A stretch of DNA of 40,705 nt. Origin: a virus. Its lineage: Duplodnaviria > Caudoviricetes. Under the pieces are notes generated by a model, which saw nothing but the letters and a program-made list of their open reading frames with translations, did not search any database and had not been told where the DNA came from. Positions 5,552-27,653 of this stretch are shown here, piece by piece (position 1 is the first letter of the stretch; each line of letters starts with the position of its first letter). A program made the position numbers and the translations under genes. The stretch is from IMG/VR virus record IMGVR_UViG_3300027007_000032, positions 1-40,705 of that record; one strand, given 5' to 3'.

Positions 5552-5800
5552 CCAGACCCCGATGACCCAGTGAGGGCCTCGTGCCCGAGGCGAGGGTCCG
5601 CATCGCACATGGGTACTGTCGTCGGCCTACACGACCTGATCGACGGGCACTGCGCTCGCATGTCGACTCCCAGCCGGACCGACCAGCGCCGTCGCGAGGG
5701 AGGATCCCCGGGACAACCGGGAGCCCTGACCGGCGGCCGCGGCGAGACCCCGCAGTCGTGTCCACCGACCCTGACCTCCGTCTTCGGCTTCCAGCCCTCC
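5552..5800 (+). ncRNA. candidate structured RNA or leader beginning with a K-loop
   Basis: CCC-GAT-GA-CCCAGT-GA-GGG at 5558-5576 plus several short GC hairpins; no convincing halophilic ORF. Confidence 0.35.
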
Positions 5801-6765: not shown

Positions 6766-7488
6766 ATGACCAGCCGAAGAGATCGCCGTGTCACACTCGC
6801 CCTCAAGTGGCACTACCTCGACAATCTCTCCCCCCAGGAGATTCGGGACCGCTTCGAGGAGGAGGGCATCGGCGACTACGCCACGAGCACGGTCCGGCGC
6901 TACCTCAACGAGCAGCCGGCCGAGGAGGTCCTCGAGCAGATCGAAGCCGAGCACGCCAACGTTCGCCTGCAGATCGCCGAGCGCGAAGAGCGGATGTTCC
7001 AGCGCGCTCGCGAGGCCGAATCTCAGGCGACCGAGGACCAGCCGATCAAGCGCGTCGTCCCCCAGACCCAGACCGCTCGCGAGACGGAGATCGTCAACGC
7101 CTGGGAGTTCGTCGAGGATCCCGACGCCCGTCCGGACTGGGCGACCGAGCGGGACGTCATCATCCGCTTCACCGACGAGGAACGCGAGGTCCTGGAGGGC
7201 CAGCAGTACCCGATCCAGGCGCTGGATGGCTCGCCCCGATACACCACGGAGTTCGCCGGCCTCGAGCGCGACGTCGACGACCTCCAGGGCCAGGCGATGG
7301 CTCGCCAGGAACAGACCCAGCACCTGCAGGCCAAGGGCGACGTCCTGGGCGTCTACAAGGATCGCGTCGAACTCGAAGGCTCACTCGAAACGGAGTCGAC
7401 TGTCGGCGTCGACGACGACACCAAGGAACTGGCTCGGGAACTGCTGGCCGCACGCTACGACCAGGAGGGCGACGATGGCGACACGTGA
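6766..7488 (+). CDS. terminase small subunit (putative)
   Basis: N-terminal HTH (LSPQEIRDRF...ATSTVRRYL); immediately upstream of TerL. Confidence 0.75.
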   Translation: MTSRRDRRVTLALKWHYLDNLSPQEIRDRFEEEGIGDYATSTVRRYLNEQPAEEVLEQIEAEHANVRLQIAEREERMFQRAREAESQATEDQPIKRVVPQTQTARETEIVNAWEFVEDPDARPDWATERDVIIRFTDEEREVLEGQQYPIQALDGSPRYTTEFAGLERDVDDLQGQAMARQEQTQHLQAKGDVLGVYKDRVELEGSLETESTVGVDDDTKELARELLAARYDQEGDDGDT

Positions 7489-9055
7489 AGTCGACCCCGA
7501 CGACGTCGTCGCCCAGCTGGAGGACCCGGCCGCGCTGCGGGAGGTCCTCAACCCCTTCGACGGCTGCCCGTGGGACGTCTACTTCAACCGGCTGACCGAG
7601 GGCTACATGGCCGCCGAGCGGGATCCGCACGTCCCGATCGGCGACGTCCACGTCCACTGGGCCGAGCAGTTCGCCAGCGACGACAACATCGGGATGCTGG
7701 CCCATCGTGACTCGCTGAAGACGACGTTCTCGCTGGGGTACGTCATCGCCTGCCTCGAGTACCAGCCCGGCTTTCTGGCCCACTGGATCACCAACACGCA
7801 GGGCCAGGCCCACAAGAAGGCTGACACCGAGTTTTGGAAGATCGTCGATCGCAACCCGTGGCTGGTCAACCTCAACCGGCCACCCGAGCAGGACACCAAG
7901 GAGGCGAAGATCTTCGCGAACGGGTCGGCGCTGTACGCCGGCTGGCTCTTCGGGGCGATCGAGGGCGACCGCTCGCACCTGCTGATCCTCGACGACGTCA
8001 TCAAAGAGCGCGGTGACGGCGACACCGAGGAGATCCTGCAGTGGATCGAGGGCGTCACCGTCCCGATGGTCAAGGACTCCGGAAAGACCGCCGTCATCGG
8101 GACGCGCAAGCGCCCGGACGACATCTACTCGCACCTGATCGATCGCGACGCCTACGATTTCACTGAGTACCCAGCGGTCCTCGAGGAGTGGGATCGGGAG
8201 TTCCGCGACGACGACACCTGGCAGGCCCGTCGTCCGCCCGAGGAGCTCTACACCGAGGTCGACGGTCGCCCGCTCGTTGACGACGACGTCCACGTCCTCT
8301 GGCCCGAAGCGCGGGGGCCCGCCTACCTCGCTGAGAAGTTCGACCAGATGTCCCGCCACCTGTTCTGGCGGGAGTTCTGCATGGTCATCCGGGGCGCGTC
8401 GGGCAACCTGATCGACGAGAGCGACGTCAACCAGCTCGTCGACGACGGTGGCTGTTCGATTCGGGGGCAGTCCCCGCCGCGACAGCTGACGCCCGGCGCC
8501 GGCGAGCAGATCGTCGTCGCCCACGACCCAGCGCAATCTCCGACCGGTGACGATGCAGCGTTCGTGGCGTTCAAAGTTGGTCGCGACGGCCGACGGACGC
8601 TCCTGGACGCCGTCGCCGAGCAGGGGATGAGTCCGTCGCGGGTGAAGGCGACGCTCGCCGACCTGGACGAGCGCTACGACCCGGCGGTCGTGGTGATCGA
8701 GTCCAACGGGATGCAGCAGTACGTCGCTAACGATGCCCTCGAGTTCTCGGCGTCGCTGCGGGCGAAGGTGACTGGCATCCCGACGACGGGGAAGAAACAC
8801 AGCTGGGAGAACGGCATCCCACGCCTCCGCCGGCTCGTCGAGAACGGCTCGATCCAGTTCTATCGCGGGCACAACGGCACCGAGGAGTTCATCCAGGCGG
8901 CGATGTCGCTGACGCTCAAGAACGGCCGCCTGGAGGGCCACACCCCGGACCTGATCGCGGCCTGGTACATGGCCGAGCAGGGCATCCGTCGCCTGGAGGG
9001 CATGGGAGCGCTCGAAGATGCCGACGACGACAGTTCAGGAGTGAGCTATCTATAG
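7475..9055 (+). CDS. terL: terminase large subunit
   Basis: Walker A-like AHRDSLKTT; Walker B LLILDD; coupling motif IGTR; RNase H-type VAHDPA, VIESN, PDLIAA; start MATREV after GGAGG. Confidence 0.92.
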   Translation: MATREVDPDDVVAQLEDPAALREVLNPFDGCPWDVYFNRLTEGYMAAERDPHVPIGDVHVHWAEQFASDDNIGMLAHRDSLKTTFSLGYVIACLEYQPGFLAHWITNTQGQAHKKADTEFWKIVDRNPWLVNLNRPPEQDTKEAKIFANGSALYAGWLFGAIEGDRSHLLILDDVIKERGDGDTEEILQWIEGVTVPMVKDSGKTAVIGTRKRPDDIYSHLIDRDAYDFTEYPAVLEEWDREFRDDDTWQARRPPEELYTEVDGRPLVDDDVHVLWPEARGPAYLAEKFDQMSRHLFWREFCMVIRGASGNLIDESDVNQLVDDGGCSIRGQSPPRQLTPGAGEQIVVAHDPAQSPTGDDAAFVAFKVGRDGRRTLLDAVAEQGMSPSRVKATLADLDERYDPAVVVIESNGMQQYVANDALEFSASLRAKVTGIPTTGKKHSWENGIPRLRRLVENGSIQFYRGHNGTEEFIQAAMSLTLKNGRLEGHTPDLIAAWYMAEQGIRRLEGMGALEDADDDSSGVSYL

Positions 9056-11014
9056 ATGTCAGATTCAGACAATAGCGCAAAGGTCAACGTCGAGGGTATC
9101 GGCGGCAACACCACACTCTCGAAGGCCCAGAACAGCCAGCAGTTGGCCGACCGCCGCATCCACACAGTCGGGACGGGCGTCAAGCCGCCCTACCATCCCG
9201 ATCGGCTGGCGTCGTTTCTCGAGCTCAACGAGACGCACGCCACGGCTGTCCGCAAGAAGGCTCGCTACGAGGTGGGCTTCGGCTTCGAGATCGTGCCTCA
9301 TGCAGACGTCGACGCCGAGGAGGCCGACGACCAGGAGCGCACCGTCGCCCGACAGTTCTGGCGCAGCCCGACCTCGCGCTGGGAGACGGGCCCGCATCAG
9401 TCCGCCGAGCCCACGACACCCCACGAGGTGAAGGAACTCGCTCGCCAGGACTACCACTCGGTCGGGTGGTGTGCCCTCGAGATCCTCACCAACATGGAGG
9501 GCCGCCCGATCGGGCTGGCACACGTCCCGGCCAACACGATCCGCGTCCGAAAACCACAGAGTCGCTTCGACAAGCCGCGCCACCCCGAAGAGGGGACGTT
9601 CGTCGGTGCCGAGTCAGCCGACTACGCGAGTCGGGGCTATGTCCAGATCCGGGATGGCCAGCGTCGATACTTCGGCGAGGCGGGCGACCGCTATCGTGGG
9701 ATGGAGCCGACGATCACCGGCGACGGGGACGACGTCCGCGTCACCTACAAACCCGACGGGGAGAGCGATCGCGAGCCCATCTACGTCGATCGGGAGACGG
9801 GCGACATCGCGATCGGTGACGCCGACGGCCTGGACAACGGGCCCGCGAATGAGCTCATCTTCATTCGGAACCCCTCGCCGCTCGAGCAGGACTACGGCGT
9901 CCCGGACTGGGTCAGCGCCATCCGGACGATCGGGGCCGACGAGGCGGCCAAGGACTACAACCGTGAGTTCTTCGACAACGACACGATCCCGCGGTTCGTC
10001 ATCAAGGTGACTGGCGGCGAGCTCACCGAGGAGTCCAAGAACGACCTTCGGCAGATGCTCCACGGCCTTCGCGAGGAGAGTCATCGCGCGGTCATCCTCG
10101 AGGTCGAGAAGTTCCAGGCCCAGCTGGACGAAGACGTCGAGATCGAGCTGGAGCCACTGGGCCAGGGCATCAGCGAGGAGATGGACTTCCGGCTGTTCCG
10201 GGAGAAAAACGAGCACGAGATCGCCAAGGTGCACGAGGTGCCGCCCATCCTCATCGGCGTCACCGAGACATCGAATCGCTCGAACTCCCAGGAGCAGGTC
10301 GCGGACTTCGCGAACAACGTCGTCGCGCCGGAACAGCACAAGTTCGCCCAGCGACTCTACCGGTTGATCCACCAGCAGGCGCTGGGCGTCACCGACTGGA
10401 CGATCGAGTACGAGCTCCGCGGGGCCGACATTCCCAAGGAGGACGCCGACGTCGCCCGGCGGAAGATCCAGGCCGTCCGCGGCGCCATCCCGATCGACCG
10501 GGCCCTGGAGATGATCGGCGAGGAGCCGCTCGACGAGGATCATCCCGTCGACGGGCAGACGCTGGTCGCCGATGTCGGCAGCGACACCCAGCCAGTCGGC
10601 CAGCAACCCGAGTCCGGCGCCGTCGAGCGTGCCGAGGCCGCGCCACCGCCGGGAAACAAGATCGGCGAGCGTGACTGGGACGAGGTCGAGGCTGATCTCG
10701 CCACCAAGGACCCCATCGAACAGACGCAGTTCGACAGCTCGAATCTTGACGAGGGCCTGTACGACTTCGGCACGCAAGAGCTGTTCCTCTCGTTCATCCG
10801 CGAGGACGGCGCCAACTCACTGTACGCCTACGTCGACGTCCCAGCGGCGGAGTGGTCGGGGCTGGTCAACGCTGCGAGCGCTGGCTCCTATCACTATGAC
10901 TCGATCCGGCTGGACTACGCCTACATCGAGATCACGAACTTCCACGACCGGCTGCCCGAGGGCCCCTCGCCCGATCCCGAGGACGTCCCGGAGGGGGTGC
11001 CGTCTGAGATATGA
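9056..11014 (+). CDS. portal protein with C-terminal KTSC-like domain
   Basis: LAHVPANTIR, YGVPDW, FFDNDTIPRFVI, HEVPPILIG portal motifs; C-terminal SSNL..GLYD...Y.Y.DVP...W..L..A.S.GSY....IR. Confidence 0.92.
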   Translation: MSDSDNSAKVNVEGIGGNTTLSKAQNSQQLADRRIHTVGTGVKPPYHPDRLASFLELNETHATAVRKKARYEVGFGFEIVPHADVDAEEADDQERTVARQFWRSPTSRWETGPHQSAEPTTPHEVKELARQDYHSVGWCALEILTNMEGRPIGLAHVPANTIRVRKPQSRFDKPRHPEEGTFVGAESADYASRGYVQIRDGQRRYFGEAGDRYRGMEPTITGDGDDVRVTYKPDGESDREPIYVDRETGDIAIGDADGLDNGPANELIFIRNPSPLEQDYGVPDWVSAIRTIGADEAAKDYNREFFDNDTIPRFVIKVTGGELTEESKNDLRQMLHGLREESHRAVILEVEKFQAQLDEDVEIELEPLGQGISEEMDFRLFREKNEHEIAKVHEVPPILIGVTETSNRSNSQEQVADFANNVVAPEQHKFAQRLYRLIHQQALGVTDWTIEYELRGADIPKEDADVARRKIQAVRGAIPIDRALEMIGEEPLDEDHPVDGQTLVADVGSDTQPVGQQPESGAVERAEAAPPPGNKIGERDWDEVEADLATKDPIEQTQFDSSNLDEGLYDFGTQELFLSFIREDGANSLYAYVDVPAAEWSGLVNAASAGSYHYDSIRLDYAYIEITNFHDRLPEGPSPDPEDVPEGVPSEI

Positions 11015-11200: not shown

Positions 11201-11244
11201 CGACCGATGATCCAGGGAGCGCCCGACTCCCCTGGTGAGGTTCG
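11201..11244 (+). promoter_or_regulatory. canonical kink-turn hairpin (putative L7Ae site)
   Basis: ACC-GAT-GA-T-CCAGGG...CCCTGG-T-GA-GGT: C-stem, 3-nt bulge, tandem G.A pairs, U.U pair, NC-stem. Confidence 0.5.
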
Positions 11245-11273
11245 ACCGGGTCAGAACGGATTTTCGACCACCT

Positions 11274-11408
11274 ATGACAGACAACAGTGAACGCGGCGAG
11301 AAGCGCGGCGTCCTCTCGACCGGTCGAGCCAAGGCTCTCGACAAAACGAAGGACGCCGACGCTGACGCCGCCGATGACGAAGACGATGTACAGGACGACG
11401 AGGGCTGA
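11274..11408 (+). CDS. 44-aa protein with basic N-half and acidic tail
   Basis: MTDNSERGEKRGVLSTGRAKALDKTKDADADAADDEDDVQDDEG; below the ORF-track cutoff; in frame with the protease. Confidence 0.6.
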   Translation: MTDNSERGEKRGVLSTGRAKALDKTKDADADAADDEDDVQDDEG

Positions 11409-11411
11409 CCC

Positions 11412-12905
11412 ATGCCGCCCGTGACAAAGGCTGGCGGGTCGGCCTTCCGGAAAGACGTCCAGTTCACCACCAAGGACGAAGACGAGCAGCGAGCGGTCGG
11501 CATCGTGATGGTGCCGGACAAGGCCGATCTCCAGCACGACTTCGCTCGTGAGGACACCATCCGGCAGTTCGCCGACCAGTTCGCCAACTTCGTCGACGCC
11601 GGCGAAGGTGACGGCGGCATCATGCACGCCGCCTGGCCCTCCGAGTGGATGCACCTCGAGCGCAACGAGGTCCTCGACGAGACGCAGGAGATCGGCGGGA
11701 CCACCGCCCCCGAGGGCGCGTGGGTCCAGGAGTGGCAGTTCGATGATGACGACCTCTGGTCGCTCGTCGACGACGGCATCCTGGAGGGCTACTCGATCGG
11801 CGCGGTCAACGTCGACTGGAACGGCCCGTACGACCAGGGCGACGAAGCCGTCGACGACGTCGCCGTCCCGAACGACCTCGACGAGGAGGCACTGATCTGG
11901 GAGCTCACCGAGGGGCTCATCCGCGAGGTCAGTGCCGTCGACATCCCTGCCGTTCCGGACGCCCAGATCCTCGACACCAAGGCCGACGCCGAGAAGCGCC
12001 TGGCCGAGCACCTGGGCAACCGCGACGGATTCATCGACGAGGCGATGGAGCGCGGCCACAGCGAGGCCGAGGCCGAACGCCTCTGGGACGTCCTCAACGA
12101 AGCGATCGACATCGAGGGCGCCGGCGACCCAGGCAAAGACTCCCTCCTCGAGCGCGTGGGCAAGGCGGCGGTGTCGGTTCTGTCCGGCGGCGAGTCGGAT
12201 GGGGCTGCGGAGTCGCCCGACGACCCCGCCCGTGAGAAGGCTGGCCGGACGCTGTCGACGTCCAACCGCGAGTCGATCATGGCGTCGATCGATGCCGGCC
12301 TGGACGTCCTCGAAGACTCGGGGATGGACCACGGCATGACGCGCTTCACCGATCGCGACGACGTCGACTTCGACCTCTCCGAGCACGACGCTCGCGAGTG
12401 GGCGGGCGATCACGACGACGATGATGATGATGGTGACGACGAGGAGGACGACGAGGAATCGACAACCGAGAACGCAACCGGCGGCGAGACGCCGGACTCC
12501 ACAGACATGAGCAACGATCCCACCGACGATGGCGACTCCGATGCGAAGGAACTCGCCGAACAGAACGCAGAACAGATCGACGAACTGACCGACGCCGTCA
12601 AGAGCCTCACCGAGGCCGTCGAGGCCGACGACCCGGACGCTGACAAGACCGCCGAGGTCGAGCTCCCTGACGGCAGCGTCGCGGAGGTCTCCAAAGAGGA
12701 GGCCCTGAGCTGGTTCGAGGACGACGAAGATGGATCCAGCAAAGGCGGCAGCACCGAGGCCGCCGCCACCAAGGCCGACATCGAGGCGCTGCACGCGCGC
12801 CTCGACGCGATCTCGCGCGAGGCAGCCGGCAGCCAGCAGCTTGACCAGGGCGACGGCGACAGCGACGACGGCGGACTCGGCGACCTGGGCAAGGCCCTCT
12901 CCTGA
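11412..12905 (+). CDS. prohead protease (XkdF-like) fused to acidic scaffold region
   Basis: GIVMVPDKADLQHD, MHAAW (His), GYSIG (Ser), EVSAVDIPAVPDA; lies between portal and capsid genes. Confidence 0.88.
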   Translation: MPPVTKAGGSAFRKDVQFTTKDEDEQRAVGIVMVPDKADLQHDFAREDTIRQFADQFANFVDAGEGDGGIMHAAWPSEWMHLERNEVLDETQEIGGTTAPEGAWVQEWQFDDDDLWSLVDDGILEGYSIGAVNVDWNGPYDQGDEAVDDVAVPNDLDEEALIWELTEGLIREVSAVDIPAVPDAQILDTKADAEKRLAEHLGNRDGFIDEAMERGHSEAEAERLWDVLNEAIDIEGAGDPGKDSLLERVGKAAVSVLSGGESDGAAESPDDPAREKAGRTLSTSNRESIMASIDAGLDVLEDSGMDHGMTRFTDRDDVDFDLSEHDAREWAGDHDDDDDDGDDEEDDEESTTENATGGETPDSTDMSNDPTDDGDSDAKELAEQNAEQIDELTDAVKSLTEAVEADDPDADKTAEVELPDGSVAEVSKEEALSWFEDDEDGSSKGGSTEAAATKADIEALHARLDAISREAAGSQQLDQGDGDSDDGGLGDLGKALS

Positions 12906-12916
12906 GGTGACTATAC

Positions 12917-13963
12917 ATGAGCACTAACACCATCGACGCAGTCCGACGCCAGAACGAACTCGCAGGGACGTCCCACAAGGATGTCGACCTCGCAACGCTG
13001 GACGGCTTCCAGCTTCCGGTCGACGTCACCGAGGAGTTCCTCGAGCGGATGCAGAAGCAGATCAACATCCTCGGGATGGCCGACACGATGACCATCCCGC
13101 GCCTGGAGATGGAGGTCCCGCAGTTCGGGGTCCCCCAGCTCTCGGGCCAGCAGCGCAACGAAGAAGGGTCGCGAACGAGCAACTCCGCGGTCGACTCGGG
13201 GTACGTCAAGTTCAACGCGACGGACAAGCAGTACTACATCCTCGTCGAGCCGACGCGCGACGCCCTCAAGAACACCCACTACGGCCCGGACCAGTTCGGC
13301 GACTACATCGTCGATCAGTTCGTCCAGCGGTGGGGCAACGACATCGGGCTGATCGGCATCCGCGCCAACGCCGACACCGGCAACCTCCAGTCGTCGTTCT
13401 CGGCGGTCACCTCTTCGACGCTCGACGACACCTGGAACGGCTGGATCGCGATCGCCGAGGGCGAGGACGGCGCGTCCGATCGGATCGGCCTCGAGGAGAC
13501 GGCCGGCGGCCAGCTCTCGACGATGCCGGTCTACGACCAGGCGTCGGCGGCGCCGGACACGCAGATGTTCAACGAGGCGATCCAGACGCTGGACTCCCGC
13601 TATCGCAACAGCAACGACGTCGACCCGGTCTTCATGATGTCGCCGGACAAGCTCCAGGAGTACGTCTTCTCGCTGACCGAGCGCGAAGATCCCCTGGGCT
13701 CGGCGGTCGTCTTCGGCGACAGCGACATCACGCCGTTCAGCTACGACGTCGTCGGTGTCAACGGCTGGCCGGACTCCTACGGGATGTTCACTGATCCCGA
13801 GAACCTCAAGTTCGGGCTCTACGAGGAGATGGAGCTCGACCAGACCACCGACACCGACAAGGTCCACGAGGACCGCCTCCACTCGCGCAACTGGCTCGAA
13901 GGCCAGTTCGATTTCCAGATCGCGGAGCTCCAGGCAGGCACGCTCATCACGAACATCGGGTGA
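12917..13963 (+). CDS. major capsid protein (HK97 fold)
   Basis: GAGGTGA RBS; position; size; GFQLP...FLERMQ and FTDPENLKFG patterns typical of HK97-type capsids. Confidence 0.88.
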   Translation: MSTNTIDAVRRQNELAGTSHKDVDLATLDGFQLPVDVTEEFLERMQKQINILGMADTMTIPRLEMEVPQFGVPQLSGQQRNEEGSRTSNSAVDSGYVKFNATDKQYYILVEPTRDALKNTHYGPDQFGDYIVDQFVQRWGNDIGLIGIRANADTGNLQSSFSAVTSSTLDDTWNGWIAIAEGEDGASDRIGLEETAGGQLSTMPVYDQASAAPDTQMFNEAIQTLDSRYRNSNDVDPVFMMSPDKLQEYVFSLTEREDPLGSAVVFGDSDITPFSYDVVGVNGWPDSYGMFTDPENLKFGLYEEMELDQTTDTDKVHEDRLHSRNWLEGQFDFQIAELQAGTLITNIG

Positions 13964-20562: not shown

Positions 20563-20729
20563 GGACGACCCGGCGGCTCGCTGCCGGCGAGCCAGCGGAC
20601 CCGGACCACGAGGCGCTGGTCCAGTTCGCCGTGGCAGCGGCGGTCGCCGACGGGCACGACCCACGCGAGGTGCGGCAGTGGGCTGAGGGTGACCTCATCC
20701 ACTACGCGAATTTCATACTCCTATCATGA
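20553..20729 (+). CDS. -1 frameshift extension (gpGT analogue)
   Basis: Heptamer 20553-20559; -1 frame open for 56 codons (LRTTRRLAAGEP...ANFILLS), stop overlaps ATG 20726. Confidence 0.8.
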   Translation, partial: GKLRTTRRLAAGEPADPDHEALVQFAVAAAVADGHDPREVRQWAEGDLIHYANFILLS

Positions 20730-21802
20730 CAGACTTCGAAACTGGTGCAGAACTGAGCATCACCATCCCCGAGCGCGAGCTCCGACAGGCACGTCGCGAC
20801 ATCCAGGACGGGATCGGGAGCGTCAACGTCTCGATCGAAAACGGGCGCGCGGCCCGGCCGGATGGTGGGGTCTCCAGTGCCGGACTCGCTGGCGGTGCTG
20901 CCGTCGACGAACTTGGCGACCAGACACAACTCCTCGAAGATATCCTCGACGAACTCGACGGTGGTGTGGGCGGTGGGGGCGGCGGTGGGGGCGGTGGCGG
21001 CCTGCTCGGTGGTGGCAGTGGGATCCTCGCCGGCCTCGGCCTCAAAAGCGCACTCGGCAGCGTCGGGGGCGGTGGCGGCCTCACGGGTTTAGCAGCCAGC
21101 AATCCAGTCGCTACTGGAGGGCTGCTCGGCCTCGGTGGTGCGGGGCTGCTCGACGTTTTCGGCGTCGATGATCAACTCCAGTCAACGGGGCAGGACGCCC
21201 GCCAGTCGCTGCCGTTCGGTGAGGAAATCGGTGACGCAGCCAACTTCATCCCTGGGCTCTCGATCGCGGCCACGCTTCCCGAGTTGGGGTCACTCGACTT
21301 CGGCGAAGCTGGCGACAAGTTCGATCAGGTGTGGCAGCAGCGTTCACGAGTCTTGCGCAACGTCACAGGAATCACACCCGCCGACGCCGACCTCTTCGCT
21401 GGGGACACTGGCAGCGGATCCACCAGCACCCGTGCGCTGACAGGATACGAACCGGCTGGAACGACGACCGGCCTCGACGACGCCCGCGAAACTGTGGCTC
21501 GCAACATCGGCGCGTCCGACGCAGAGGCGCGCCGAGCGGGGATGAGTCAGACCCAGAGCACCGTCGCCGACTACCTGACGTCTGGCAACCCGACGTCAAG
21601 CTCTGAGACGAACTCGACGACAAATGTCACAGTCAACGCCCCGATCGACGCGAGCGGGAACGGCGAGATCTCACCTCAGCAGGTGCAAGAACTCCAGCGC
21701 GAGTTCGAACGGATCGCCCAGGAGAAACTGACCTCTCAGGAGGCGGCGGACAACCTCAGTGGGACGATGCAGAACAACTTCAACAGTCTCTTCTCAGGAT
21801 AA
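20726..21802 (+). CDS. short tape-measure-like protein
   Basis: Follows the G/GT chaperone; G/A/L-rich; C-terminal TNVTVNAPID. Confidence 0.7.
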   Translation: MTDFETGAELSITIPERELRQARRDIQDGIGSVNVSIENGRAARPDGGVSSAGLAGGAAVDELGDQTQLLEDILDELDGGVGGGGGGGGGGGLLGGGSGILAGLGLKSALGSVGGGGGLTGLAASNPVATGGLLGLGGAGLLDVFGVDDQLQSTGQDARQSLPFGEEIGDAANFIPGLSIAATLPELGSLDFGEAGDKFDQVWQQRSRVLRNVTGITPADADLFAGDTGSGSTSTRALTGYEPAGTTTGLDDARETVARNIGASDAEARRAGMSQTQSTVADYLTSGNPTSSSETNSTTNVTVNAPIDASGNGEISPQQVQELQREFERIAQEKLTSQEAADNLSGTMQNNFNSLFSG

Positions 21803-23200
21803 ATGGTCACGATCAACGGCACCCAGCTGGATGGCGTCCGACAGGTCCAGGCGACGGACAACTCCAGCGGCACGCTCGGTCGCGCCGAGATCGTCGTCCA
21901 GGACTCCCCGACAGTCCGATCACTGACCAGCCCGGGCGCCACCGTCACCATCCCCCAGCCCGGCGCCGACTGGACGGGCTACGTCGACGGCGAGTCCGTG
22001 ACTGGGCGCTGGCGCACGATTCGGGCGATCGAGTACCGTGGCGAGCTCCGGGCGAGTCCGCTGCACACCGTCTTCTACGATGTCCCGCGCTCGGAGGGCG
22101 TCACGCTGGCGGCCACGACTGAGACCGAGCAGCGCAACCTCACGCCGATCCACGTGGGCTCGAGCACGACCGACTGGTCGTTCCGCGCGCCGGTCGCCGA
22201 GCTCTACGCCGGAACGCGCGCCGGGCTGTACAACTGGGGGACGGACAACATCTTCTTAGCCGCTCGCGAGGGACACTCCCAGACGCTCACGGCCACCTAC
22301 TCCAACGTCACCACTGACCAGATCCGCGATGGGATCTTTAGCCTGCAGACCCGGCTCCTGGTCAACGATCGCGGCGCCGGCTGGGACACTGAGATCGAAC
22401 TTGTCACGCCCGGCGGGACGACCTATCTCTGGGAACCGACGACGCCGTCGACGTTCCGAACGCTCGAGCTCCCAGCCGAGGAGGCCACCACCGACGGGCA
22501 GGTCTCCCAGACGGGGACGCTCCAGTATCGCTTTTCGCCACGTGCCTCACTGACGGCGCCGACGGGGATCATGATCGACAACGCCCACACGATCCCGTTC
22601 GACCGGGTCAACCGCGACAACGACCTCACGACCAACGGCGTCGAAGCCACCAGCGATTCGATCCGCCGGCGGGTCGACGTCCCAGTCGGGCAGTTTTTGA
22701 ACGTGATGGCCACCGAGGCCGACCGGGAATGGTGGGTCGACGACCAAGACCTGCAGTTCACGGATTCGGGCGGGAGCCAGGGCCTGGAGATTTCGACCGA
22801 CCAGCCCGTCTTCGACGTCGAGGACGATCGCGATTACCAAGCCGTCCGCAACGTCGTCGAGGTCCAGGGTGCCGACGGTGTCGGCGTCACCGTCCGAGAG
22901 CCGACGTCGATCAGCTTCTACGGACCAGTCCCACGACGAGAGCCGATCGTCGATAAGTCGATCCAGTCTGCCGCAGAGGCCCGCGAGCGCGGCGAGGGGT
23001 TCCTGGCGGACAACGCCTTCGACGACGGATCGATTACGTTCTCGATCCTCGACGAGCGCTACCAGCGCCTCTCTGCCGAGGACCTCATCCCCGTCGACTG
23101 GCCGCGGCTCGACCTCAACGGGATCTTCACGGTCGATAGCGTCGACGGCGACGATCCGCGAAGCCACGTTACGATCACGGCCAGCAGCGCGACCACGTAG
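21803..23200 (+). CDS. tail tip/baseplate hub protein
   Basis: WWVDDQDLQF, VRNVVEVQG, SISFYG, hub-like C-terminus. Confidence 0.7.
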   Translation: MVTINGTQLDGVRQVQATDNSSGTLGRAEIVVQDSPTVRSLTSPGATVTIPQPGADWTGYVDGESVTGRWRTIRAIEYRGELRASPLHTVFYDVPRSEGVTLAATTETEQRNLTPIHVGSSTTDWSFRAPVAELYAGTRAGLYNWGTDNIFLAAREGHSQTLTATYSNVTTDQIRDGIFSLQTRLLVNDRGAGWDTEIELVTPGGTTYLWEPTTPSTFRTLELPAEEATTDGQVSQTGTLQYRFSPRASLTAPTGIMIDNAHTIPFDRVNRDNDLTTNGVEATSDSIRRRVDVPVGQFLNVMATEADREWWVDDQDLQFTDSGGSQGLEISTDQPVFDVEDDRDYQAVRNVVEVQGADGVGVTVREPTSISFYGPVPRREPIVDKSIQSAAEARERGEGFLADNAFDDGSITFSILDERYQRLSAEDLIPVDWPRLDLNGIFTVDSVDGDDPRSHVTITASSATT

Positions 23201-25808: not shown

Positions 25809-27653
25809 ATGGAAAATACTGACCCCAACCCGAAACGAACGCGCCGATCACTCCTTTTTGGGCTTGCAGGCACAGCTGGAGTTGCCGGATTTGGGGCCGG
25901 AATTTTGGTCGGGACAACTGTTAAACCTCCAAAAAGCACCCCGTCAGAAATTGCTATTGGACCAAGACCGCCCGAAGCGAACGAAGGCGACCTTTGGGCA
26001 CAGGAGCCAGCCATGAGCAATTTTTATAATTATCCTACCTGGGGAAAAGCAAAGTTTTTCGATATAGGGTTCAACGCGAGCAATGGCTACGGAGGCGATG
26101 TCGACGTTGAACATATCAGCGGGACCTACTACACCGTTCTTCGGGACCCAGACACGGAGATCGTCATGATCTCTTCGACCGATCCCGCTGCGACGACCTG
26201 GACGGATGAAGGGACGCTGGCGACCGCCAGCGACACTGTCTATAGCTACGTGACCGATCCCGCGATCATCGAGGTTAACGGCACCTGGTATCTCTATTTC
26301 TCGGCTGGCAACACCACCTCTGACCAGGAAACAACCGAAATCTACGTCGGCACAGCATCGTCACCGACTGGTAGCTACACAATCCAGTCGACTGGCCTTG
26401 CTGCTGGCGGTGGCGGGTGGCGAGACTACGCGATTGGGGAGCCAGCTGTCTGTTACGATGAGCAAAACCAGCAGTGGGTGATGGCTGTGACCGGCGCACA
26501 AGACAGCAATACCAGCGAGCAAAGTAGTGGCCTCGCAATCAGCAGTGATGGAACGACCTGGTCATGGCTGGCGTCCAATCCAATCATCACCAGCGGGCCA
26601 AACTCCGACTCGACTCCAAACATCGTCGACCCCGAGATCACCTGCGAGAACGGGATGTTCACACACTACGCGAATGAGGGTACGACAAAATACATCCAGA
26701 AGTGGATCTCAACGGATCTGGATAACTGGAGTTTAGCAGATCACACGCCAGTAATCAAAGGCGATCGACCTGAAGATACTGGCGGCGGACCGTTCGCGCC
26801 AGCCGTTATCGATGTCGATGGGACCTCGCATATGTGGTACTCTGCACAAGGCGAAGACGGCAATTACCGTGTCTATGTCCGTGGCAAGCGACACCACGTT
26901 GGCGGTGAGGTAAGACGATACAACGGCTCATCGTGGGTCACGAACCCCGTCTTTAGTTACGATGGGAGCCGATGGCGTCGGACAAGCGCGGTTAACCGCT
27001 ACAATGGGTCGGAATGGAACCGTGCACCACCACTCCAGCAGCCGACGATAATCGATCGGTTCGAGGACCTCTCACTAAGTGAGTATAACACGTACGATCG
27101 GGATGGCGATGGCACGGTTACAGCGTCTGATACGTACTACTACGGCGGCTCGGGGGCGTTAGAACTGTCTGCACCAAGCGCATCGAATACAGATATGTCT
27201 GCACTGTCTAACAGCGGGTTGGATAACTATCCAAGCCGAGGACAGTCGTTCAAATATAATTTATACTTTGACAATAATAGTGGTCTGAACGCAACAGATT
27301 TTGTCTTTTTCGCTGGGAGTGGCTCGGGCACCCCTCGACCGGATGATTGCTATTTTGTTGAGACTGTCGTCAATGGCGAAATTAGACTATATGAACGGTC
27401 TACTGGATCTAATACGTTACTCGATTCGGCGGAGGTGACGTGGTCAAATTACGAGAAGCAATTTCTTGAAGTTGTGGTTAATCCACAAAGTGATGGTACG
27501 ATCTCAGTCACGCTTCGTGACATTTTAGAGAATCAAATAGCTCAAATCTCACCCAGTGACTCAACACACGATTCGGGAGGAGTTGGTGCTGTGGTGTTCG
27601 CGAATAATAACGATGTCACAGAAGTCTTCTACGACGAGTGGGAGTTTGTGTAA
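25809..27653 (+). CDS. putative receptor-binding/glycosidase protein: GH43/GH32-like beta-propeller plus C-terminal beta-sandwich
   Basis: Blade repeats DPAII...WYLYFS, EPAV, DPEI, APAVI..G..HMWYS; three Y(N/D)GS.W repeats; lower GC; alternative ATG at 26013. Confidence 0.75.
   Translation: MENTDPNPKRTRRSLLFGLAGTAGVAGFGAGILVGTTVKPPKSTPSEIAIGPRPPEANEGDLWAQEPAMSNFYNYPTWGKAKFFDIGFNASNGYGGDVDVEHISGTYYTVLRDPDTEIVMISSTDPAATTWTDEGTLATASDTVYSYVTDPAIIEVNGTWYLYFSAGNTTSDQETTEIYVGTASSPTGSYTIQSTGLAAGGGGWRDYAIGEPAVCYDEQNQQWVMAVTGAQDSNTSEQSSGLAISSDGTTWSWLASNPIITSGPNSDSTPNIVDPEITCENGMFTHYANEGTTKYIQKWISTDLDNWSLADHTPVIKGDRPEDTGGGPFAPAVIDVDGTSHMWYSAQGEDGNYRVYVRGKRHHVGGEVRRYNGSSWVTNPVFSYDGSRWRRTSAVNRYNGSEWNRAPPLQQPTIIDRFEDLSLSEYNTYDRDGDGTVTASDTYYYGGSGALELSAPSASNTDMSALSNSGLDNYPSRGQSFKYNLYFDNNSGLNATDFVFFAGSGSGTPRPDDCYFVETVVNGEIRLYERSTGSNTLLDSAEVTWSNYEKQFLEVVVNPQSDGTISVTLRDILENQIAQISPSDSTHDSGGVGAVVFANNNDVTEVFYDEWEFV

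What the first reader, a model, noticed from the sequence alone, without database searches (positions are those of the whole stretch)
10730..10930. Portal protein fused to a KTSC-like domain
Seen: after an acidic linker the portal continues into SSNLDEGLYDFGTQELFLSF...YAYVDVPAAEWSGLVNAASAGSYHYDSIR, matching the KTSC pattern. KTSC is regarded as a single-stranded nucleic-acid-binding module. Inference: a portal ring could display multiple nucleic-acid-binding domains. With the two nearby K-turn RNAs, this suggests (speculatively) an RNA-assisted packaging or assembly system loosely analogous to phi29 pRNA.
Basis: partly seen in the sequence, partly recalled or inferred. Interest (0 to 1): 0.72.

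Follow-up and report, generated by a model that had tools for sequence, protein, structure and literature searches.

The report
Halovirus portal carries internal KTSC cargo
The DNA-entry ring (portal) of this virus of salt-loving archaea really ends in a small KTSC domain, at the end predicted to face the inside of the head, where it likely stands in for the usual minor head protein MuF; the nearby kinked RNA hairpins are conserved but also occur in viruses without KTSC, so an RNA-assisted packaging motor is unlikely.

Summary
The fusion is real: Pfam KTSC at residues 560-621 (E 4.8e-11), with a fold match to KTSC structure 7X8C (Z 11.2, 1.1 A). It is standard in BJ1/CGphi46-like haloviruses, visible in databases, and this scan found it twice before on other DNA.

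The pRNA reading is not supported. KTSC follows the crown end of an HK97-type portal (capsid interior), the virus has an ordinary terminase, and the K-turn element also occurs in 17 of 21 KTSC-less relatives.

New here: (1) in 79 distinct loci KTSC (58) and the minor head gene MuF/gp7 (21) never co-occur, though this rests on only 2 independent contrasts; (2) another provirus lineage encodes the same KTSC as a separate gene between terminase and portal, also without MuF; (3) a Lys just before it is kept in 116 of 117 portals, like Lys sites near the starts of other head proteins. Best reading: a portal-delivered internal head protein in the MuF slot, probably released by the prohead protease. 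Its ligand is unproven, and it has lost most basic residues.

Side result: an Rfam-unlisted K-turn-plus-pseudoknot RNA family ahead of halovirus head genes.

The parts
9056..11014 (+). Portal-KTSC fusion gene, 652 aa
9056..10567 (+). HK97-type portal core (residues about 35-504); Lys23 near the N-terminus kept in 116 of 117
10571..10639 (+). Variable, predicted-disordered linker (about 506-528)
10640..10705 (+). Conserved pre-KTSC segment (PPxxNKIGER strand plus helix, 529-550), predicted to pack on the KTSC domain; absent from standalone halovirus KTSC proteins
10706..10708 (+). Lys551, kept in 116 of 117 (Arg in 1); candidate prohead-protease site (inferred)
10733..10918 (+). KTSC domain (Pfam PF13619, residues 560-621; structural match 555-627)
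11203..11250 (+). Conserved K-turn hairpin with predicted loop-to-3' pseudoknot (11222-11225 pairing with 11247-11250); ends 23 nt before the ATG of the small ORF
11274..11408 (+). Small conserved ORF (44 aa, RGEKRG motif, acidic tail; BJ1 ORF51 homologue), found with KTSC in most loci and in no MuF locus
11412..12905 (+). XkdF-type prohead protease with acidic scaffold-like tail
   Evidence: PF14550, E 6e-28
12917..13963 (+). Major capsid protein
   Evidence: phrog_1623; gene order as BJ1 ORF53
7475..9055 (+). Large terminase (start approximate) with RNase H-like nuclease domain
   Evidence: PF17289, E 2.1e-10
5555..5598 (+). Second K-turn element, probably closing a three-way junction, at the start of the intergenic region ahead of the late genes; counterparts in KTSC loci and in one MuF locus

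Best explanation
The portal gene ends in a genuine KTSC domain that is predicted to lie inside the head and likely serves as a portal-delivered internal head protein in place of the MuF/gp7 protein, likely cut free at Lys551 by the prohead protease. Shown: in-frame fusion, KTSC fold, attachment after the crown end of an HK97-type portal, KTSC and MuF never together in the loci examined, a standalone form in another lineage, and the conserved Lys. Inferred: twelve copies enter each prohead with the portal ring; the protease trims head proteins after Lys and releases or nicks KTSC; the domain then does a gp7-like job at the portal, most likely holding the packaged DNA end so that ejection is timed properly. 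The K-turn/pseudoknot is inferred to be a separate cis-element of the late mRNA, bound by host L7Ae, that sets stability or translation of the high-copy protease/capsid genes.
For: Fusion and fold. Crown-end attachment: with T4 portal topology from PMC9958956. Exclusion with MuF: of 103 loci examined, 79 were kept (24 dropped as truncated or duplicate); KTSC 58, MuF 21, both 0, neither 0. No MuF-profile hit anywhere in the window at E <= 10. The genes after KTSC-less portals are PHROG 'head morphogenesis' (3 of 3 tested). A phiCh1-type portal that gained KTSC has no MuF (L206). Standalone form: in 5 of 20 genome regions fetched, a halovirus-type KTSC is a separate ORF. PHROG confirms terminase and portal on either side in L188 and L189, and the portal in L186. 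In the four with a complete portal (L186-L189) the protease-type gene follows it within 300 nt, and Pfam MuF hits in those genomes lie on other contigs. The standalone proteins start with a short peptide ending in K or R at the Lys551 position. Lys23 is kept in 116 of 117 and Lys551 in 116 of 117 against 3.1% background Lys. Similar Lys sites lie near the starts of MCP, protease and MuF (by eye); HK97 cleaves at K103/S104 (PMC10275583). The same C-terminal slot carries MuF in 4 of 66 portal representatives scanned and an ADP-ribosyltransferase-like tail after KTSC in L003, L020, L021 and L034. SPP1 gp7 is targeted to the procapsid interior by the portal and aids infection (PMC6316719).
Against: The KTSC/MuF exclusion rests on only 2 independent pairs on the portal tree (2 of 2 the same way, sign test p 0.5) plus the standalone lineage. 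KTSC, RNA, small ORF and protease are linked and could have moved as one cassette, with MuF lost in the swap. About 65% of tailed phages have no MuF at all (PMC5576092), so its absence is weak evidence alone. The domain model folds 526-636 as one unit (pTM 0.84), so Lys535 and Lys551 lie within it and may be structural; L080 lacks the Lys551 equivalent. At the four positions recalled as the ssDNA-binding residues of the 7X8C protein, 0 of 117 portal KTSCs have K/R. In 23 parsed KTSC domains from other haloarchaeal genes the counts are 18, 0, 15 and 8. DNA binding in the known mode is therefore doubtful; only the Arg618 position is kept (117 of 117). No proteomics or binding data exist for this virus.
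Confidence: 0.5

Rival explanations
1. KTSC is a permanent, uncleaved crown appendage that binds scaffold, capsid or DNA inside the head during assembly; the Lys is structural.
For: The domain is as conserved as the portal core (0.79 against 0.71-0.75; the set was found with this region, which inflates it). The pre-KTSC strand and helix fold onto it with high confidence. Its surface is acidic and aromatic-rich, which suits protein binding.
Against: Standalone versions begin right at the Lys/Arg and lack the pre-KTSC segment, so the segment is dispensable for the fold. Matching Lys sites occur in other head proteins.
Confidence: 0.22
2. KTSC is an ejected early effector or decoy that enters the host with the DNA and interferes with KTSC-containing or DNA-sensing defence systems.
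For: Haloarchaeal solo KTSC genes sit beside HerA-like and ATPase/nuclease genes. A HerA of a SIR2-HerA system has a weak KTSC-like C-terminal match (E 0.32; PMC11472057). Some portals add an ART-like tail after KTSC (DRAT-like, score 0.91). Portal and MuF fusions are described as delivery routes for effectors (PMC5512222, PMC5576092).
Against: High uniform conservation and fixed linkage to head genes are unlike fast-evolving counter-defence genes. There is no evidence of ejection.
Confidence: 0.15
3. Portal-KTSC binds the K-turn RNAs to form a pRNA-like ring that assists packaging or assembly.
For: The RNA structure covaries. The loop/tail complementarity could pair between molecules as well as within one. 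53 of 58 KTSC loci carry a K-turn-type element. phiCh1 virions were reported to contain RNA (title seen in a reference list), but phiCh1 lacks KTSC.
Against: KTSC is at the interior end. The element is in 17 of 21 KTSC-less loci and is replaced in 5 of 58 KTSC loci. Most of 53 distinct short-type copies show no portal, KTSC, MuF or protease hit within 1.5 kb, and most lie about 20-30 nt before an ATG. The virus has an ordinary terminase.
Confidence: 0.04
4. KTSC is a neutral passenger fused once to the portal and inherited by descent.
For: Most carriers form one clade (48 of 50 rows).
Against: Dozens of invariant residues over 117 sequences, presence on three portal branches, and an independent standalone gene in the same module.
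Confidence: 0.05

Closest known systems
Portal proteins of Halorubrum viruses BJ1 (ORF50) and CGphi46, Graaviviridae
   Same: Same portal-KTSC architecture (67.5% and 50.9% identity), same K-turn element after the portal, same order terminase-portal-small ORF-XkdF protease-MCP.
   Different: Nothing essential. The KTSC part is visible in Pfam/UniRef labels but is not mentioned in the passages read of the BJ1 paper (PMC2194725, searched for portal and ORF terms) or in the main text of the taxonomy paper (PMC8651126, 0 occurrences).
KTSC family (PF13619); Methanolobus vulcani protein, PDB 7X8C
   Same: Fold (Z 11.2, rmsd 1.1 A, 69 residues) and family motifs.
   Different: Fused to a portal, with an extra N-terminal strand/helix and a C-terminal extension; acidic; K/R absent at the four positions recalled as ssDNA-binding (the paper, PMID 35809674, was not readable).
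SPP1 gp7 / MuF minor head proteins and portal-MuF or MuF-toxin fusions
   Same: Same genomic slot after the portal; delivery to the head interior through the portal; C-terminal enzymatic cargo in some members.
   Different: No sequence relation to MuF; much smaller; up to 12 copies by fusion rather than 1-2 by binding.
phi29 pRNA (recalled)
   Same: A structured viral RNA with loop-mediated pairing, encoded near packaging genes.
   Different: pRNA is a longer multi-helix RNA on the outside of the prohead, under a nuclease-less ATPase (recalled). Here the element is about 50 nt, sits in a leader position, is independent of KTSC, and the virus has a terminase with a nuclease domain.
K-turn leaders bound by L7Ae in archaeal mRNAs (PMC5539422); K-turn-assisted pseudoknots of SAM-I and c-di-GMP-II riboswitches (recalled)
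   Same: Box C/D-type K-turn in an untranslated region before a start codon; a kinked hairpin whose loop pairs with a 3' segment.
   Different: Viral; no Rfam family matched at E <= 1; no enclosing riboswitch helix or ligand pocket seen.

Membership tests
KTSC (PF13619) | Profile score above the curated cut-off over the whole model | tested here: met
   42.7 bits against 25, positions 1-58
KTSC (PF13619) | Four-strand sheet plus helix pair as in 7X8C | tested here: met
   Z 11.2, rmsd 1.1 A, 69 aligned
KTSC ssDNA-binding type (7X8C protein) | Basic residues at positions 3, 7, 54, 58 (numbers recalled, not read) | tested here: not met
   0 of 117 at each position; position 7 is also non-basic in the other haloarchaeal KTSCs
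KTSC ssDNA-binding type (7X8C protein) | Binds ssDNA; forms a tetramer | not testable with these tools
   needs a binding assay; oligomer not modelled
HK97-type portal | PF04860 match and clip-stem-wing-crown fold | tested here: met
   (Z 19-21 to GTA and HK97 portals)
Graaviviridae | Portal closest to BJ1/CGphi46, shared head-gene order, integrase | tested here: met
Graaviviridae | Genome-wide shared gene fraction used for family demarcation | not tested
   no whole-proteome comparison was run
MuF/gp7 | MuF domain homology | tested here: not met
   no hit in the window to a halovirus MuF profile or to Pfam MuF on the portal
MuF/gp7 | Occupies the slot after the portal and is carried into the head by it | tested here: inconclusive
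   slot and exclusion seen; virion location inferred
phi29 pRNA system | Packaging ATPase without terminase nuclease (recalled) | tested here: not met
   TerL with PF17289
phi29 pRNA system | RNA tied to its protein partner across relatives | tested here: not met
   K-turn element in 17 of 21 KTSC-less loci; replaced in 5 of 58 KTSC loci
phi29 pRNA system | Intermolecular loop pairing into a ring | not testable with these tools
   sequence cannot tell intra- from intermolecular pairing
K-turn motif | C-stem, 3-nt bulge, tandem G.A/A.G, NC stem with covariation | tested here: met
   34 sequences, 93.8% of cells paired, 5 pairs changed on both sides; MuF type, 14 sequences, 95.2% and 4 pairs
K-turn motif | L7Ae binding and kinked fold | not testable with these tools
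   needs EMSA or structure
Known Rfam families (riboswitches, ribozymes, C/D sRNAs) | Covariance-model match | tested here: not met
   no match at either K-turn site at E <= 1

The most novel reading that the evidence does not exclude
Haloviruses replaced the MuF/gp7 minor head protein with a KTSC domain that is made either as a free gene or as a protease-released tail of the portal, so twelve copies are loaded into each head to hold or escort the DNA. The same viruses balance few-copy portal against many-copy capsid proteins with an undescribed family of K-turn/pseudoknot mRNA elements that recruit host L7Ae, interchangeable with tRNA-like processing signals.
Probability: 0.3. Interest if true: 0.72.

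Novelty: new variant of a known kind. Interest (0 to 1): 0.5.

Why it matters
What MuF/gp7-type minor head proteins do is a long-open question. A 70-residue domain that appears to substitute for MuF, in cultured viruses (BJ1, CGphi46) with cultured MuF-bearing sisters (phiH, phiCh1, HRTV-DL1), makes it testable by domain swaps and virion proteomics. It would also give the widespread but poorly understood KTSC family a defined viral role. The K-turn/pseudoknot family would be a structured cis-regulatory RNA of archaeal viruses not listed in Rfam. The fusion alone is modest news: it is database-visible and was already noted twice in this scan.

Tried and rejected
Co-folding KTSC (526-640) with the small 44-aa ORF gave no answer, score 0.00; this is no evidence either way. 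A search for close standalone relatives of 44-140 aa found 1 protein, probably a portal fragment; standalone forms appeared only through the genome scan. No loci were found for P0128 in viral contigs; L206/L207 later supplied that type. The first covariance model hit 49 sources, all KTSC loci, and no MuF locus at a significant score, which at first suggested perfect KTSC-RNA co-occurrence. Reading the MuF loci directly showed diverged subtypes, so that reading was dropped. One search used a mis-registered structure string and is superseded. A hammerhead reading of the CGAUGA..GAG core was considered and rejected, because the flanking bases covary as a K-turn C-stem. Minimum-free-energy folding of the elements is not better than shuffles (z 0.5 to -0.9 for the K-turn segments), so support comes from covariation only. 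ARAGORN does not call the T-arm elements as tRNAs. The atlas feature search of the KTSC region gave nothing usable. RNA-library contigs cover the HRTV-DL1-like locus L074 but cannot show ends or levels. A K-to-R switch shared by several head proteins of L189 is suggestive, but the alignments are too loose to count. Antibody and glycosidase hits are chance. The 7X8C paper is not held. Supplements were not read; annotation tables of PMC8651126, PMC11705971 or PMC13573593 might label the KTSC part.

Full report
Observation. The window is a 40,705-base virus record with an integrase, MCM, Cdc6-like and PCNA genes and a head module of terminase, portal, protease and capsid genes. ORF 9056-11014 (652 aa) carries Pfam Phage_portal at 216-438 and a complete KTSC at 560-621. 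Of 120 listed relatives of the C-terminal region, 119 carry both domains. The closest isolates are BJ1 and CGphi46 of the Graaviviridae. In 401 Halobacteria genomes, 54 have a KTSC match, and 22 of the listed matches lie in frames of 598-673 aa; 14 of those were fetched and are portal-KTSC fusions. A model of residues 526-640 (pLDDT 88, pTM 0.84) matches KTSC structure 7X8C at Z 11.2, far above the next hit at 5.3.

Where the domain sits. The full model aligns over residues 35-504 to the whole HK97 portal and over 37-492 to the gene-transfer-agent portal. A variable, low-confidence linker follows, then KTSC. In T4 the clip faces outward and takes the motor, while stem, wing and crown are inside the capsid (PMC9958956 passages). 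That the C-terminal part forms the crown is general portal knowledge. KTSC is therefore inferred to hang inside the head, on the side away from the terminase. The dodecamer itself was not modelled.

KTSC and MuF. KTSC-less sister viruses (phiH, phiCh1, HRTV-DL1) have a head-morphogenesis (MuF/gp7) gene straight after the portal; the window has none. Of 103 loci, 79 were complete and distinct: 58 have KTSC, 21 have MuF, none both and none neither. On the portal tree this is only 2 independent pairs (p 0.5). A wider tree needs 3 changes for the KTSC label. A second lineage, with a portal not detected by my profile, encodes the same halovirus-type KTSC as a separate gene in front of the portal (L186-L190). 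The next gene after that portal is protease-like, and MuF hits in those genomes are on other contigs. The portal's C-terminal slot is a general cargo site. It holds MuF in 4 of 66 representatives scanned out of 150 returned, an unknown Trp/Cys-rich domain in 3, and KTSC in 4. In four loci KTSC is followed by about 370 further residues with ADP-ribosyltransferase-like motifs. A bacteriophage PBSX-type portal also appears among structural KTSC matches, as does a 70-aa phage 'structural protein' (labels only, not checked).

A possible protease site. Lys551 is kept in 116 of 117 portals, as is Lys23, against 3.1% Lys overall. MCP, protease and MuF of these viruses also show a Lys at the end of a short N-terminal stretch (by eye). 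The standalone KTSC proteins begin with a short peptide ending in K or R at the same place. HK97 maturation cuts at K103/S104 (PMC10275583 passage). Against this, the model folds the preceding strand and helix onto the domain, and L080 lacks the Lys. Cleavage is a prediction.

Does it bind nucleic acid? KTSC is called RNA- or DNA-binding in passing in PMC7824862 and PMC9503650 (passages), and one member is titled an ssDNA-binding protein (reference seen; paper not held). At the four positions I recall as its binding residues, portal KTSCs have no K/R (0 of 117 each). In 23 parsed KTSC domains from other haloarchaeal genes (of 30 loci, one of them halovirus-type) the counts are 18, 0, 15 and 8. 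One Arg (618) is invariant, and several Tyr/His are nearly so. Binding in the known mode is thus doubtful, and a changed mode or a protein ligand is open.

The K-turn RNAs. A strict scan finds two plus-strand K-turns in the window, at 5558 and 11203. The second is conserved after the portal gene. Over 34 sequences, 93.8% of cells pair and five pairs change on both sides, including the C-stem; slid controls reach at most 48%. Its loop is complementary to an invariant 3' segment. That helix does not vary in this subtype, but other subtypes swap it. A pattern that specified neither side of the pseudoknot gave 64 viral-contig hits, 53 distinct; 36 form at least 5 base pairs between loop and tail, against a mean of 9.2 and a maximum of 18 in 1000 shuffles. 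Most lie about 20-30 nt before an ATG, and only a minority have a head-gene hit within 1.5 kb. A third subtype precedes the protease gene in MuF viruses (95.2% paired, four pairs changed on both sides). A general K-turn-plus-pseudoknot scan hits 14 of 23 MuF loci (duplicates included) in the 100 nt before the protease, against 2.6% of random 95-nt windows. Overall, 53 of 58 KTSC loci and 17 of 21 MuF loci carry a K-turn-type element, and 5 KTSC loci carry a tRNA-T-arm-like element instead. The RNA follows the start of the protease/capsid genes, not KTSC. L7Ae binds K-turns in archaeal mRNA leaders and controls translation (PMC5539422, abstract). An mRNA stability or translation role is inferred, not shown.

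Literature. A whole-word search for KTSC gave 22 papers (20 listed); none of the listed titles concerns a portal, and the three opened mention KTSC once each. A second search gave one preprint in which KTSC appears only in a figure legend. The arTV taxonomy paper has no occurrence in its main text. Searches on K-turns with haloarchaeal viruses listed nothing on this RNA (listings only), and Rfam has no match. The library lacks most subscription journals, and supplements were not read. Also seen as passages: PMC6210493, PMC10544981 (portal and two phiCh1-like capsid proteins in HRTV-DL1 virions), PMC2194725, PMC5576092, PMC5512222, PMC6316719, PMC11472057, PMC11237433. phi29 pRNA and riboswitch features are recalled. 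This scan recorded the same fusion twice before, with the same interior reading; I reached that reading before looking and tested it here.

Verdict. The fusion is real, typical of its virus group and uncharacterised. The best reading is a portal-delivered internal head protein in the MuF slot (0.5); the pRNA analogy is unlikely (0.04). The RNA element is a separate, apparently undescribed family that deserves its own follow-up. Interest 0.5.

Noticed in passing
window 11203-11250; L122-L185; L083:7612-7672; L186-L189 between portal and protease: Family of K-turn-plus-pseudoknot RNA elements in haloviruses, at least three subtypes, usually 20-30 nt before an ATG; the pseudoknot covaries in the short subtype; no Rfam match.
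   Followed up: partly
L045:2112, L052:5361, L061:7860, and L195, L198, L204 just after the portal gene: tRNA-like element (acceptor-like stem plus T-arm) followed by a GC hairpin takes the place of the K-turn element after the portal; possibly an RNase P/Z processing signal.
   Followed up: partly
window 5555-5598; L002, L011, L014, L016, L027, L031, L041, L080: Second K-turn element with a variable interior, 3-4 kb upstream of the portal, at the start of a long intergenic region.
   Followed up: partly
L003, L020, L021, L034; P0060: Portal-KTSC extended by about 370 aa ending in an ADP-ribosyltransferase-like domain (atlas: DRAT-like, 0.91), followed by a small ORF.
   Followed up: partly
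L186-L190: Haloarchaeal proviruses with a divergent portal and capsid and a standalone KTSC gene in front of the portal.
   Followed up: partly
P0134, P0136, P0140: Halophilic portals ending in an unknown Trp/Cys-rich domain after a Lys, with no Pfam match.
   Followed up: no
window 11274-11408: 44-aa ORF with an invariant RGxKRG motif and acidic tail, linked to KTSC loci and absent from MuF loci; missing in L018, L191 and L193.
   Followed up: partly
L086, L095, L097, L098, L100, L103, L106: Solo haloarchaeal KTSC genes beside HerA-like or ATPase/nuclease genes, resembling defence operons.
   Followed up: no
L039 about 6247, L041 about 9516, L085 about 6537, L038 about 9509: K-turn-plus-pseudoknot-like pattern inside the protease/scaffold coding region of phiH/phiCh1-type viruses; could mark an internal scaffold start.
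   Followed up: no
window 25809-27653: 614-aa late-region protein with a GH43-like beta-propeller match (E 9.8e-13), a possible receptor-binding or glycan-degrading tail protein.
   Followed up: no
window 20726-21802 and 21803-23200: No long tape-measure-sized ORF is obvious; the two ORFs after the tail-tube region are 358 and 465 aa.
   Followed up: no
P0123, L191: Portals whose KTSC part is out of frame (sequencing error or decay; not resolved).
   Followed up: no
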